Assembly: GCA_965215635.1 (NCBI GenBank)
Contig: CBDCEA010000005.1
Coordinates: 325,491 to 389,490 of the forward strand
Direction of reading: 5' to 3'
Source: Alphaproteobacteria bacterium
GTDB taxonomy: Bacteria > Pseudomonadota > Alphaproteobacteria > SP197
DNA: 64,000 nt
Part shown: positions 34,251-36,452 of the stretch, in pieces
How the letters are laid out: each line of letters opens with the position of its first letter
How positions within the stretch are numbered: the first letter of the stretch is position 1
Translations under genes and position numbers: made by a program
Notes under the pieces: model-generated
The model's database searches: none
The model's input: only the letters and a program-made list of their open reading frames with translations
What the model was told of the DNA's origin: nothing

Positions 34251-34549
34251 TTCGACCCGGCAGGGAAAGGTCCAGGCGGCTTGCCTGAAGGGCATCCGCT
34301 CAACCGAGGCATGACGCGTCCCGGCAGGCATGAAGAGGGCTCTCGGCTCTCGACACGGGGGTGACCGATGGCAATCCGGGATCGCATATCGCAACTCTCG
34401 AGAAGGCCGGCTTCGTGCGGGTGGTCAGGGATTTCGTGGGCAAGAGGCCTGGAACCCGTGTCGGTGTCACGGCCTCCGGAGCGCGCGCATTCCGCGATCA
34501 AGCCGCCATATCCCCGATCCTCCCGGAGAGGTGCCCTGACAGGCCTTTT

Positions 34550-35338
34550 TCAGGAGATGGCCCTGCCGACGGCCCTTCCTGCCATGACTGTGACGAGGTG
34601 GGCCCGGTAGTCGGGCGATGCGTGGATGTCGCTGTTGAGGCCGTCTTCCGGGATCGGGATGCCGGCGACGGATCCGGGGGCGAAGTCCCGGGCCAGGGCC
34701 TCCTCCATCTCCTTGACGCGGAAGACCGATGGTCCGGCCCCTGTCACAGCGACGCGCACACCGTCTGCGGTCTCGGCAACAAAGACCCCGACGATGGCGT
34801 AGCGTGAGGCCGGGTTGGGAAACTTCATGTAGGCGGCGCGGCGCGGCGTGGGAAAGATAACGGACTTCACGAGTTCACCGTCCTCGAGGGCCGTCTCGAA
34901 GAGATCGACAAAGTAAGCGTCGGCAGCGATCTCGCGGCGGTCGGTGACGATCGTCGCGCCGAGGCCCACCAGCGCTGCCGGGTAGTCTGCCGCAGGATCC
35001 GCATTGGCGATCGAGCCGCCAAGCGTGCCGCGGTTGCGCACCTGGAAATCGCCGATCATGCCTGCGAGCTCCGACAGGGCCGGAATGCCGTCGGCCATGC
35101 GCGCAACTTCGGCATGCCGGACACCTGCCCCGACGGTGATCGACGCACGATCATGCTTCAGTCCCTTGAGTTCGCCGATGCCGCCCAGGTCGATCAGGTC
35201 GGAAGGAGCCACAAGGCGCATCTTGAGAGTGGGAACAAGCGTGTGACCGCCGGCGATATAGCGCGGATCCTCGCATCCGCCATGAAGGCGCACGGCATCG
35301 CCGATCGAATCGACGCTGTGATAGCGGAAGGCATACAA
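34550..35338 (-). CDS. coxM: FAD-binding medium subunit of a molybdenum hydroxylase (CO dehydrogenase / xanthine dehydrogenase family, CoxM-like)
   Basis: FAD-binding PCMH-type domain …AGGHTLVP…; 262 aa; 3 bp after coxS. Confidence 0.85.
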   Translation of the reverse strand: MYAFRYHSVDSIGDAVRLHGGCEDPRYIAGGHTLVPTLKMRLVAPSDLIDLGGIGELKGLKHDRASITVGAGVRHAEVARMADGIPALSELAGMIGDFQVRNRGTLGGSIANADPAADYPAALVGLGATIVTDRREIAADAYFVDLFETALEDGELVKSVIFPTPRRAAYMKFPNPASRYAIVGVFVAETADGVRVAVTGAGPSVFRVKEMEEALARDFAPGSVAGIPIPEDGLNSDIHASPDYRAHLVTVMAGRAVGRAIS

Positions 35339-35341
35339 GGT

Positions 35342-35821
35342 TCAGGCCCCCTTGCCGGCCATCTTGCCCGCCGCCGCGGCAATCGACTTGACGATGTTGT
35401 GATAGCCGGTGCAGCGGCACAGGTTGCCCTCGAGATGCTCCCGGATCTCGCGTTCCGTGGGAGCCGGGTTGTGTTTCAGGAGGTCGAGAGCGCTCATGAT
35501 CATGCCGGGTGTGCAGAAACCGCACTGAAGGCCGTGGTTCTCGTGGAAGGCCAGCTGCATCGGATGAAGCGTGTCGCCGTCGGCAAGGCCCTCGATCGTC
35601 GCGATCTCGCGTCCCGATGCCTGGACCGCAAGGATCGTGCAGGACTTGACGGAATCGCCGTCGAGATGGACGACACAGGTCCCGCACTGGCTGGTGTCGC
35701 ATCCGACGTGGGTTCCTGTCAGGCGAAGGGTTTCCCGAAGGAAGGTGACGAGCAGCGTGTTTTCCTCGCACGTCCCCGAACGCACTTGCCCATTGACCGT
35801 CATCGATACGGTGATGGCCAT
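35342..35821 (-). CDS. coxS: (2Fe-2S)-binding small subunit of molybdenum hydroxylase (CoxS-like)
   Basis: Start [12 protein letters not shown] at 35821 after GAGGAG; two [2Fe-2S] motifs CDTSQCGTC and CGFCTPG…CRCTGY. Confidence 0.9.
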
Positions 35822-35855
35822 GGCTCTCCTCGCCTTTCCTTGTCCGACACCAAGC

Positions 35856-36452
35856 CTACTGGAGAAACGCCGCCACGACACCAAACGCGACAAGTGCAAG
35901 ACCCGCCAGCCCGAACAACACCCTTTCCATGACGACTGCCAAAGCTGGTTCCCGATGATTCCCGGTTGGGTGCTCCACCGGTTCCTCCATGACCTCTTCT
36001 CCATTCGCTTCGTCTGTGGACACCAGGTCATCGAAACGCTCGAAAAACTCTCCGGCGATCTTGCGCGCGCTGCCTTCGACGAGACGCGCGCCCACCTGGG
36101 CAAGCTTGCCCCCGACCCTGCCCTCCGCGGCGTAGCGCAGGATTGTCGCTGCTCCATCGGCCTCCAGTGTGACCTTTGCGCCTCCGCTGGCGAATCCCGC
36201 GGCACCCCCCTTGCCTTGGCCGGTGATCACGCAGGTTGAAGGCGGATCGAGCTCGGAGAGCATGACCCTGCCGGAAAAGACGACCGAGACCGGACCGATC
36301 TTAGTCTTCACCTTCGCCGTGAACGCGGTGTCCGATTCCTGTTCGATGGCCTGGCAGCCCGGTATGGCCCGCGCGAGTACGTCCGGATCGTTGAGAGCCT
36401 GCCATACGGTATCGCGAGGCGCGCCGATGCGGTGTTCCCCTGAAAGTTCCAT
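35856..36452 (-). CDS. coxG: CoxG-like SRPBCC protein (carbon monoxide dehydrogenase subunit G family) with C-terminal membrane anchor
   Basis: Family resemblance of N-terminal 150 aa; hydrophobic C-terminal helix …[17 protein letters not shown]. Confidence 0.75.

What the first reader, a model, noticed from the sequence alone, without database searches (positions are those of the whole stretch)
34394..36452. coxG-coxS-coxM present but no large molybdopterin catalytic subunit; cluster ends abruptly at the decayed island boundary
Molybdenum hydroxylases (CODH, XDH, aldehyde oxidoreductases) require an L subunit of roughly 750-800 aa carrying the Mo-MCD cofactor; cox clusters are normally M-S-L or S-L-M. 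Here coxM stops at 34550, and the next 650 bp contain only a relaxase stub and a wHTH-like fragment belonging to the mobile island. Either the L gene was lost or displaced by the island insertion, leaving an inactive remnant. Alternatively the S/M pair acts alone as an FAD/2Fe-2S electron-transfer module for the adjacent Mrp complex, or L is encoded elsewhere.
Basis: partly seen in the sequence, partly recalled or inferred. Interest (0 to 1): 0.7.

Follow-up and report, generated by a model that had tools for sequence, protein, structure and literature searches.

The report
Old coxL deletion, not island damage
The catalytic molybdenum subunit gene really is missing. It was cut out cleanly from between coxS and coxM long ago in a whole clade of uncultured Alphaproteobacteria, and the mobile island next door did not remove it. 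The remaining iron-sulfur, flavin and quinone-shuttle genes are still kept by selection at the end of an Mrp antiporter operon.

Summary
coxG (35856-36452), coxS (35342-35821) and coxM (34550-35338) lie on the minus strand. No large-subunit sequence, not even a remnant, exists in the 64-kb window. Downstream lie a MobF-relaxase stub and a wHTH fragment.

The main interpretation, loss of L through the island, is refuted. In the nearest L-bearing relatives (Tepidicaulis, Parvibaculum, Rhodobiaceae) the order is mrp(10 genes)-coxG-coxS-coxL-coxM-coxD-coxE-xdhC-mocA. L therefore sits between S and M (form II, AYRGAGR motif). In 14 distinct class A loci, about a dozen lineages and mostly without mobile elements, coxS stop and coxM start are 2-31 nt apart and L is absent. 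This indicates one ancient, precise deletion.

G, S and M are intact, keep all eight Cys ligands and the FAD motifs, and are under purifying selection (dN/dS 0.07-0.25). Sister lineages keep coxD, coxE, xdhC and mocA under selection, which implies a Mo subunit encoded elsewhere. The window's own sublineage lacks these genes nearby, and its G/S/M evolve about twice as fast relative to Mrp.

The most likely function is a [2Fe-2S]-FAD-quinone output module serving a partner encoded in trans. The partner itself was not found. Interest is moderate: a new variant of a known kind.

The parts
43282..43758 (-). mrpE (158 aa), first gene of the operon
   Evidence: PF01899 MNHE in the identical gene of L001. 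NCBIfam matches antiporter subunit E models, all below their cut-offs.
43019..43282 (-). mrpF (87 aa)
   Evidence: PF04066. NCBIfam subunit F models.
42690..43022 (-). mrpG (110 aa)
   Evidence: PF03334. TIGR01300 scores 77 bits against a cut-off of 63.
42148..42693 (-). DUF4040/MbhD-MbhE-like protein, equivalent to the C-terminal part of MrpA (181 aa)
   Evidence: PF13244 and PF20501. NF009159 scores 179 bits against a cut-off of 141, and the protein aligns to residues ~600-780 of MrpA models.
41729..42151 (-). mrpB (140 aa)
   Evidence: PF04039. NF009162 scores 165.6 bits against a cut-off of 120.
41367..41729 (-). mrpC (NuoK-like, 120 aa)
   Evidence: PF00420. NF005621 scores 136.8 bits against a cut-off of 126.
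39881..41362 (-). mrpD-like antiporter subunit 1 (493 aa)
   Evidence: PF00361. NCBIfam subunit D models.
38403..39884 (-). mrpD-like antiporter subunit 2 (493 aa)
   Evidence: PF00361. NCBIfam subunit D models.
38158..38406 (-). 82-aa predicted membrane protein of unknown family, overlapping its neighbours' stop and start codons
   Evidence: No Pfam or NCBIfam hit. Conserved in all class A loci.
36468..38165 (-). mrpD-like antiporter subunit 3 (565 aa), NCBIfam Na+/H+ antiporter subunit D; stop codon 15 nt before coxG
   Evidence: PF00361. NF009310 scores 672.7 bits against a cut-off of 564.
35856..36452 (-). coxG: SRPBCC domain, linker and C-terminal transmembrane helix (198 aa)
   Evidence: PF06240, E 3.9e-35. 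Matches M. smegmatis CoxG 8uds_D at E 3e-14. The hydrophobic tail ...[21 protein letters not shown] is visible in the sequence.
35342..35821 (-). coxS: small subunit with two [2Fe-2S] clusters (159 aa)
   Evidence: PF01799 and PF00111. All 8 Cys and the CGFCTPG and CRCTGY motifs are present. 68 of 71 positions conserved in L-bearing clusters are retained.
35339..35341 (-). 3-nt coxS-coxM junction, the place where coxL (~788 aa) sits in L-bearing relatives
   Evidence: Junction sequences of class A loci compared with the S-L and L-M junctions of class B.
34550..35338 (-). coxM: FAD-binding medium subunit (262 aa, TTG start), last gene of the operon
   Evidence: PF00941, E 4.2e-42. Closest solved chains are 4zoh_B and the CODH CutM/CoxM chains. 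82 of 90 conserved positions are retained.
34361..34501 (+). winged-helix (HTH_34) fragment; not part of the operon, marks the start of foreign or decayed DNA
   Evidence: PF13601, E 7.7e-8, covering profile positions 27-72 only.
33948..34394 (-). C-terminal stub of a MobF-type relaxase/helicase; not part of the operon
   Evidence: UvrD_C_2, E 7.8e-5. tblastn matches mobF genes of Rhodobacterales plasmids at ~45% identity over residues 57-121.
32433..33710 (-). Fic-domain protein with C-terminal wHTH; accessory gene in the variable region downstream
   Evidence: Fic_N and Fic domains. NCBIfam Fic model, below cut-off.

Best explanation
The window carries one 13-gene minus-strand operon. It has ten genes for an Mrp-type multisubunit cation/proton antiporter, followed by coxG, coxS and coxM.

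The three cox genes are what is left of a form-II CoxSLM-type molybdenum hydroxylase cluster. Its ancestral order, still seen in Tepidicaulis, Parvibaculum and Rhodobiaceae, is mrp-coxG-coxS-coxL-coxM-coxD-coxE-xdhC-mocA. In the common ancestor of a clade of uncultured Alphaproteobacteria (class A), coxL alone was excised precisely, which brought coxS and coxM within a few bases of each other. The Fic/relaxase island next to coxM in this genome arrived later and had nothing to do with the loss of L.

What remains is the electron-output half of the enzyme. It consists of two [2Fe-2S] clusters (CoxS), FAD (CoxM), and a membrane-tethered CoxG that, by analogy with the mycobacterial enzyme, presents respiratory quinone to the FAD site. 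This half is still functional.

Its most likely job is to pass electrons to the quinone pool from a catalytic partner encoded elsewhere in the genome, most plausibly another xanthine-dehydrogenase-family Mo subunit.

Shown: the absence of L, the age and precision of the deletion, the intact cofactor ligands, the purifying selection, and the conserved linkage to mrp. Inferred: the trans partner, the direction of electron flow, the use of quinone, and co-transcription with mrp (supported only by 3-34 nt spacings).

I put about 0.95 on 'ancient deletion unrelated to the island, genes still functional' and about 0.5 on 'partner is a trans-encoded Mo subunit'.
For: 1. Position of L. Five Mrp-linked loci and many unlinked ones have a 786-792 aa ORF between coxS and coxM that carries AYRGAGR. 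The literature gives the S-L-M order and this motif as the form II signature (PMC7645674).

2. Shared deletion. 14 distinct class A loci (window, L005, L007, L008, L009-L013, L058-L062), representing about a dozen lineages, have coxS and coxM 2-31 nt apart. None has a CoxL-like sequence within +/-10 kb. Class A is monophyletic in an S+M neighbour-joining tree.

3. No island in relatives. Their downstream genes are arginase/LysR, DLH/IclR, YdbH or coxD.

4. Function retained. Class-wide dN/dS is 0.067 for CoxS, 0.133 for CoxM and 0.205 for CoxG, against 0.15-0.20 for the MrpD genes. Within the window's subclade the values are 0.116, 0.195 and 0.255. All 8 Cys are kept, as are 68/71 CoxS and 82/90 CoxM positions conserved in L-bearing clusters.

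5. A Mo subunit is still being matured in sister lineages. coxD, coxE, xdhC and mocA are intact downstream of coxM in L008, L009, L010, L012, L060 and L061. Where measured (L008-L010, L012, L013), their dN/dS of 0.10-0.23 equals or is lower than in L-bearing class B.

6. Architecture. CoxG's architecture matches the quinone shuttle that docks near the CoxM FAD (PMC12202499; 8uds_D).
Against: No trans-encoded L was found, because whole genomes could not be scanned. A database search with the nearest L (L016) listed hits only down to 72% identity, and none came from a contig with the length of a class A chromosome.

In the window's own subclade (window, L005, L007, L058, L059) the maturation genes are not within 10 kb. 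No class-A-type CoxE was seen on contigs of matching length. That read-out is not fully reliable, because L008's known CoxE did not show its chromosome length.

In that subclade CoxS, CoxM and CoxG evolve 1.7-2.5 times faster relative to the co-encoded MrpD genes than in L-bearing relatives. This fits partial loss of constraint, such as a lost L interface.

dS is near saturation (0.7-1.5), so dN/dS values are approximate.
Confidence: 0.6

Rival explanations
1. coxL lay next to the cluster and was lost or displaced when the mobile island inserted. coxG-S-M is therefore an inactive remnant.
For: The DNA immediately after coxM is foreign or decayed: an HTH fragment, a MobF stub and a Fic gene. 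The accessory genes coxD/E/xdhC/mocA, which follow coxM in sister lineages, are missing from the window.
Against: L lies between S and M in relatives, not after M. The L-less S-M junction is shared by about a dozen lineages without any mobile element at the boundary. The island-free close relatives L005, L058 and L059 end the cluster at the same point. The genes are intact with dN/dS of 0.1-0.25.
Confidence: 0.03
2. An L-independent module. After losing L, CoxS-CoxM-CoxG took on a job of its own with the co-transcribed Mrp complex. One option is an FeS-flavoprotein:quinone oxidoreductase fed by a non-molybdenum donor (ferredoxin, NAD(P)H or another dehydrogenase). Another is a redox partner physically attached to the antiporter.
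For: The mrp-cox linkage is conserved across classes A and B, with 13-44 nt between mrpD3 and coxG in class B and 15 nt in the window. In the window's subclade the Mo-maturation genes are gone from the locus while G, S and M stay under selection. The faster evolution of CoxM and CoxG and the class-A-fixed changes near the FAD motif (N113A, G145D) could reflect adaptation to a new partner. CoxG-like proteins are reported to serve a non-molybdenum dehydrogenase in Sulfolobus (title and abstract of PMC11962113).
Against: The Mrp set is an ordinary complete antiporter. It has no NuoH-, NuoB- or NuoD-like coupling subunits. The same S/L/M family occurs without mrp (class C), and in class B the cluster is a full Mo enzyme with maturation genes. 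CoxS keeps nearly all positions conserved in L-bearing enzymes and is the most conserved protein of the operon. That would be unexpected if its large L-facing surface were free. CoxM is of the CoxM/CutB type, not the NAD-binding XDH type.
Confidence: 0.17
3. Slow decay. The three genes have been functionless since L was lost and simply have not yet accumulated disabling mutations. Alternatively they are kept only because they are translationally or transcriptionally tied to mrp.
For: Relative rate acceleration in the window's subclade. Weak or non-canonical coxM start codons: TTG in the window and CTG in L007. Insertions inside the cox part in some lineages, such as nitrile hydratase genes between coxG and coxS in L061.
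Against: The reading frames are intact in all 14 class A loci despite dS around 1. dN/dS is 0.07-0.25, comparable with the Mrp genes. All cofactor ligands are retained. coxS and coxM are the last genes of the operon, so polarity cannot explain their conservation.
Confidence: 0.1

Closest known systems
Form II 'CODH-like' CoxSLM molybdenum hydroxylases (xanthine dehydrogenase family; S-L-M gene order, AYRGAGR motif in L)
   Same: CoxS and CoxM belong to this group. The nearest L-bearing clusters have the S-L-M order, the AYRGAGR motif, and downstream coxD-coxE-xdhC-mocA (PMC7645674). The cofactor motifs of S and M are intact.
   Different: The catalytic L gene is absent from the cluster and from the whole 64-kb window. 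S and M abut each other. The cluster is appended to an mrp operon. The substrate of form II enzymes is unknown. The class B L scores below the NCBIfam cut-offs for CO dehydrogenase (660 vs 991) and glyceraldehyde dehydrogenase (674 vs 790).
Mycobacterium smegmatis Mo-CODH with CoxG quinone shuttle (Kropp et al. 2025, PMC12202499; PDB 8uem, 8uds)
   Same: CoxG has the same build: an SRPBCC cavity domain, a linker and a C-terminal membrane helix. Its sequence matches 8uds_D. The expected electron path is [2Fe-2S] x2 to FAD to quinone.
   Different: That enzyme is form I (M-S-L order, CuMo site) and has its L. There, CoxG is predicted to dock at the CoxM/CoxL interface, half of which is missing here in cis. 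CoxG evolves fastest of the three genes in class A.
Mrp (CPA3) multisubunit cation/proton antiporters with split MrpA
   Same: Subunits E, F, G, A-C-terminal-like (DUF4040), B, C and three NuoL/M/N-like subunits are present. Several score above NCBIfam cut-offs.
   Different: It carries an extra D-like subunit and an 82-aa unknown membrane protein. It is followed in the same operon by cox genes. No paper in the searched library links Mrp with CoxG.
Mrp-derived redox-driven complexes (Mbh/Mbx/Ech-type, complex I relatives)
   Same: Antiporter-like subunits are encoded beside a redox module.
   Different: The defining coupling subunits (NuoH/MbhM, NuoB, NuoD and NuoI homologues) are absent. The resemblance is therefore only in gene neighbourhood.

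Membership tests
Xanthine dehydrogenase / Mo-hydroxylase family heterotrimer (CoxSLM type) | Small subunit with two [2Fe-2S] clusters (8 Cys; Fer2 plus Fer2_2 domains) | tested here: met
   PF01799 at E 2.6e-34 and PF00111. All Cys residues and the CGFCTPG and CRCTGY motifs are conserved.
Xanthine dehydrogenase / Mo-hydroxylase family heterotrimer (CoxSLM type) | Medium subunit with the FAD-binding domain PF00941 | tested here: met
   E 4.2e-42. The AGGHT and TLGGS motifs are present. The closest solved chains are 4zoh_B and CODH CutM/CoxM.
Xanthine dehydrogenase / Mo-hydroxylase family heterotrimer (CoxSLM type) | Large Mo-MCD subunit (PF01315, PF02738, PF20256) encoded with S and M | tested here: not met
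   No hit in the window or in 13 related loci by tblastn or by profile HMM on six frames. Whether L exists elsewhere in the genome could not be tested.
Form II CoxSLM (putative CODH II) | S-L-M gene order and AYRGAGR in L | tested here: inconclusive
   Both features are met in the nearest L-bearing relatives (PMC7645674). Neither can be scored in the window itself because L is missing. S and M are assigned by homology (55-73% identity) and by tree position.
Form I aerobic CO dehydrogenase | M-S-L gene order and the AYXCSFR motif in L | tested here: not met
   The order here is G-S-M. The relatives' L has AYRGAGR and scores 660 bits against the 991 cut-off of TIGR02416.
CoxG quinone-shuttle proteins | SRPBCC (PF06240) domain plus flexible linker and C-terminal membrane helix | tested here: met
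   PF06240 at E 3.9e-35. Hydrophobic C-terminal tail of about 22 residues. Match to 8uds_D.
CoxG quinone-shuttle proteins | Binds respiratory quinone and docks at CoxM/CoxL near FAD | not testable with these tools
   Known only for M. smegmatis (PMC12202499).
Mrp (CPA3) antiporter | Full subunit set A-G | tested here: met
   Pfam MNHE, MrpF_PhaF, PhaG, MbhD/E, MnhB, Oxidored_q2 and three Proton_antipo_M. NCBIfam models for G, DUF4040, B, C and D score above their cut-offs.
Complex-I-like redox-coupled Mrp derivatives (Mbh/Mbx/Ech) | NuoH-, NuoB-, NuoD- and NuoI-like coupling subunits | tested here: not met
   None of the genes in the operon has such domains.
NAD-dependent xanthine dehydrogenase FAD subunit | NAD(H)-binding site on the FAD domain | not tested
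   Only indirect evidence is available. CoxM matches the CoxM/CutB-type chains (E 1e-28 to 5e-35) far better than R. capsulatus XdhA (E 4e-12). Residue-level mapping was not done.

The most novel reading that the evidence does not exclude
The Mrp-cox operon encodes a previously undescribed membrane assembly in which a CoxG/S/M electron-transfer module works directly with the Mrp antiporter. In the L-less clade this module has become independent of any molybdenum subunit and takes electrons from a different donor. That would be a new kind of redox partner for an Mrp complex and a new use of xanthine-dehydrogenase-family S/M subunits.
Probability: 0.12. Interest if true: 0.75.

Novelty: new variant of a known kind. 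Interest (0 to 1): 0.45.

Why it matters
Form II CoxSLM enzymes are very common in marine and soil Alphaproteobacteria, yet their substrate and role are unknown. Two points here are not in the searched literature.

First, the whole cox cluster is the tail of an Mrp antiporter operon in several families, including the culturable Tepidicaulis and Parvibaculum.

Second, a whole clade has kept the FeS, FAD and quinone-shuttle subunits, and often the Mo-maturation genes, for a long time after losing the catalytic gene from the cluster.

If the partner is a trans-encoded Mo subunit, S/M/G modules can be shared or re-paired. Annotation pipelines that call CO oxidation from coxS/coxM, or that expect L beside them, would then mislead. 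If there is no Mo partner, the S/M pair has a function outside molybdenum enzymology.

Either outcome can be tested directly on complete genomes that already exist.

Tried and rejected
1. Looking for L in the window. The large ORFs are an ankyrin/SH3 protein, hydantoinases A and B, an OYE-type reductase and an acyl-CoA synthetase. None is a Mo enzyme.

2. Near-identical DNA in plasmids. Only a 76% coxS match in Azospirillum was found, so there is no sign that the locus is plasmid-borne.

3. Finding a trans L through contig length. A protein search with the nearest L (L016) listed only hits of 72% identity or more, and none came from a contig with the length of a class A chromosome. This is inconclusive, because a relocated orthologue might be less than 72% identical.

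4. Finding coxE in the window's subclade the same way. Orthologues of 67% identity or more appeared only for the sister group, on contigs of 3,752,649, 11,065 and 43,752 bp. This is suggestive of loss. The contig-length column is not fully reliable, because L008's CoxE did not show 3,415,685.

5. Look-ups of P0001 and P0011 returned nothing.

6. Promoter and terminator scans and repeat scans around the coxM end gave nothing above chance. The island borders were therefore not defined by repeats.

7. I considered that coxM in L007 might be truncated, because it was called as 223 aa. It is full length, with CTG at the start position.

8. I considered an assembly artefact and rejected it, because four independent contigs agree.

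9. The metagenome scan, the representative search and the structure prediction tools were not used. None of them could locate a partner gene in a specific genome.
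Full report
**What is at the coordinates**

Three tightly spaced genes lie on the minus strand.
- coxG, 35856-36452, 198 aa: Pfam COXG, E 3.9e-35, ending in a hydrophobic helix.
- coxS, 35342-35821, 159 aa: Fer2_2 plus Fer2.
- coxM, 34550-35338, 262 aa: FAD_binding_5, E 4.2e-42.

Directly upstream, on the same strand and with overlapping or near-overlapping stops and starts, are ten genes of an Mrp-type cation/proton antiporter. They are E, F, G, a DUF4040/MbhD-E-like piece equivalent to the C-terminus of MrpA, B, C, two D-like subunits, an 82-aa unknown membrane protein, and a third 565-aa D-like subunit. 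That last gene stops 15 nt before coxG.

Downstream of coxM lie an HTH_34 fragment on the opposite strand, then a stub whose residues 57-121 resemble the C-terminal helicase part of MobF relaxases, then a Fic gene.

**Is L really absent?**

Yes, within everything I could read.
- None of the long ORFs in the 64-kb window is a molybdenum subunit.
- tblastn with five CoxL proteins taken from related loci found nothing at E<=1e-3.
- A CoxL profile HMM, run without filters on every stop-to-stop frame of at least 25 aa, found nothing in the window. In 16 related locus records it found nothing better than E 2.7, which is noise. The positive controls scored above 1400 bits.
- Four independent contigs of the same species repeat the arrangement, so it is not a mis-assembly.

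**Where L should be**

A scan of one genome per species with CoxM returned 51 loci. Mapping the window's proteins onto them gave three classes.
- Class B: Tepidicaulis marinus, Tepidicaulis sp., two Parvibaculum and a Rhodobiaceae MAG, with CoxM 55-57% identical. These have the same mrp genes, then coxG and coxS, then a 2.4-kb gap, then coxM. The gap holds a 786-792 aa ORF with the motif AYRGAGR. After coxM come coxD, coxE, xdhC and mocA.
- Class C: many loci with coxS-coxL-coxM but no mrp.
- Class A: CoxM 67-79% identical. These have mrp-coxG-coxS-coxM with nothing between S and M.

The S-L-M order and AYRGAGR are the published signature of form II cox clusters (PMC7645674). L therefore belongs between S and M, not after M where the island lies.

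**How old and how clean the loss is**

Class A now comprises 14 distinct loci, representing about a dozen lineages: the window species, L005, L007, L008 (=L006), L009-L013 and L058-L062. Several of them lie on complete chromosomes or megabase-scale circular contigs.

In all of them the coxS stop and the coxM start are 2-31 nt apart, and 2-6 nt apart in most. Class A is monophyletic in a CoxS+CoxM neighbour-joining tree. The simplest account is a single precise deletion of coxL in the common ancestor.

The downstream neighbour differs between lineages.
- L010: coxD follows coxM directly.
- L008, L009, L011-L013, L060, L061 and L062: a YdbH-like gene (with its ynbE- and ydbL-like partners where these were annotated) comes first. 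It is followed by coxD-coxE-xdhC-mocA in L008, L009, L012, L060 and L061. Only xdhC and mocA follow in L013 and L062, and the L011 contig ends first.
- L005 and L059: arginase and LysR.
- L058: a DLH hydrolase and IclR.
- The window: the Fic/relaxase remnants.

None of the relatives has a mobile element at the coxM boundary.

**Are the remaining genes alive?**

All reading frames are intact.

Pairwise Nei-Gojobori estimates within class A give these median dN/dS values:

| Gene | Class A | Class B (L present) |
|---|---|---|
| CoxS | 0.067 | 0.109 |
| CoxM | 0.133 | 0.110 |
| CoxG | 0.205 | 0.157 |
| MrpD genes | 0.15-0.20 | 0.17-0.25 |

CoxS is the most conserved protein of the operon, with a mean identity of 86%. 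All eight cluster cysteines are kept. So are 68 of 71 CoxS positions and 82 of 90 CoxM positions that are at least 90% conserved in L-bearing clusters. dS is around 1, so the ratios are rough, but comparison across genes of the same genomes is fair. The genes are not a decaying remnant.

**Evidence bearing on a partner**

Where class A lineages keep them, coxD, coxE, xdhC and mocA are intact. In the five where it was measured (L008-L010, L012, L013), their dN/dS is 0.10-0.23, the same as or lower than in class B. The only known role of these genes is maturation of the Mo-MCD large subunit. Those genomes must therefore still make such a subunit somewhere. The cluster that matures it is the one that also encodes G, S and M.

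This is the main reason I favour a trans-encoded L.

Against it, the window's own subclade (window, L005, L007, L058, L059) has none of these genes within 10 kb. A database search with CoxE found class-A-type orthologues only on contigs that match the sister group.

Using the co-encoded MrpD genes as an internal clock, dN relative to MrpD dN for the same genome pairs changes as follows:

| Group | CoxS | CoxM | CoxG |
|---|---|---|---|
| Class B (L present) | 0.45 | 0.65 | 0.95 |
| Sister subclade (coxD/E nearby) | 0.38 | 0.94 | 1.70 |
| Window's subclade | 0.76 | 1.28 | 2.35 |

Constraint on CoxM and CoxG loosened after L left the cluster. These are the two proteins that touch L in the published docking model (PMC12202499). 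Constraint on all three loosened further where the maturation genes are gone. Selection nevertheless remains clearly purifying (omega 0.12-0.26).

I could not scan whole genomes. A search with the nearest L reached only 72% identity and showed no hit from a class A chromosome.

**How it most likely works**

CoxS carries two [2Fe-2S] clusters and CoxM carries FAD. CoxG is built like the mycobacterial protein that extracts quinone from the membrane and presents it near the FAD.

The three together form the electron-output half of a Mo hydroxylase. My best reading is that they still do this job, receiving electrons at the CoxS cluster from a catalytic subunit encoded elsewhere and passing them to the quinone pool. 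They are expressed together with an Mrp antiporter.

The Mrp set is an ordinary complete antiporter without the NuoH-, NuoB- or NuoD-like coupling subunits of complex-I-type machines. I therefore read the linkage as co-expression rather than as a single redox-driven pump. A direct association is not excluded.

CoxM resembles the CoxM/CutB-type flavoproteins much more than NAD-dependent XdhA.

**Comparison with what is known, and novelty**

The parts are all members of known families. S and M belong to the xanthine dehydrogenase family, with form II cox clusters as the nearest relatives. CoxG is the quinone-shuttle type. The Mrp is a CPA3 antiporter with a split MrpA.

What differs is the combination.
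- A form II cox cluster forms the 3' end of an mrp operon in several alphaproteobacterial families.
- A clade has kept G, S and M, and often D, E, XdhC and MocA, but not L.

Full-text searches found no paper linking Mrp and CoxG and none describing L-less S/M pairs. I rate this a new variant of a known kind. Interest is moderate, because the key question of whether there is a partner, and which one, is open but can be answered directly from existing complete genomes.

**Verdict**

Loss through the island is refuted. 'S/M act alone with Mrp' remains a minority possibility.

Noticed in passing
window 38158-38406 (-): An 82-aa ORF with two predicted membrane helices sits between the second and third MrpD-like genes and overlaps both. 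It has no Pfam or NCBIfam match but is conserved in every class A locus, and weakly in some class B loci.
   Followed up: partly
L017, L021, L022, L023, L028 (about 1-15700 in each): In Tepidicaulis, Parvibaculum and a Rhodobiaceae MAG, a complete form II cluster (coxG-S-L-M-D-E-xdhC-mocA) follows the mrp genes on the same strand, 13-44 nt after mrpD3. I found no paper describing this Mrp-cox linkage.
   Followed up: partly
L006/L008 10903-14046; L009, L011 and L012 10873-14166; L013 11208-14375; L060, L061 and L062 about 10800-14900: A YdbH-like gene is inserted between coxM and the Mo-maturation genes in one branch of the L-less clade. Where genes were called (L006/L008, L060, L061) it comes with Lipoprotein_19 (ynbE-like) and DUF1318 (ydbL-like) genes.
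   Followed up: no
L061 6469-9299: In a 5.5-Mb genome, a PAP2 phosphatase gene and nitrile hydratase alpha/beta genes are inserted between coxG and coxS. coxS-coxM stay adjacent.
   Followed up: no
window 44327-45190 (-) and L002 1-1025: A secreted Exo_endo_phos-family gene sits between DUF192 and mrpE in the window. It is absent at that spot in L005, L058 and L059. One strain of the same species (L002) has IS110-family transposase genes there instead.
   Followed up: no
window 26220-28406 (-), 24932-26158 (+): A 728-aa ankyrin-repeat plus SH3 protein lies next to an IS66-family transposase. The ankyrin gene is shorter, split or absent in other strains of the same species (L001, L003, L002).
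   Followed up: no
window 35338 (coxM start); L007 10001: coxM starts with TTG in the window. L007 has CTG at the homologous position, 3 nt after the coxS stop, which suggests translational coupling or re-initiation. Gene callers shorten coxM in L007 and L058 as a result.
   Followed up: partly
window coxM residues 113, 124, 145 (within 34550-35338): Three substitutions are fixed in the L-less clade at positions otherwise at least 90% conserved: N113A in the GGSIAN(N>A)DP stretch after the FAD motif, L124V and G145D. IGDFQVR also replaces the usual IGDP.VR.
   Followed up: no
window 46789-49196 (+) and 46160-46792 (+): Urease genes (a fused gamma/beta gene and an alpha gene) and a DUF192 gene lie upstream of the mrp operon. 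The DUF192-mrp neighbourhood is conserved in most class A loci examined (L005-L007, L009, L010, L013, L058, L059). The urease genes are also seen in L005, L013, L058 and L059.
   Followed up: no
window 30300-31491 (+): A glyoxalase-like gene and a phosphoribosyltransferase gene appear to be native genes that resume after the Fic/relaxase remnants. L007 has the glyoxalase homologue and L058 the PRTase homologue several kb downstream of coxM. The foreign stretch next to coxM is therefore only about 3-4 kb.
   Followed up: partly
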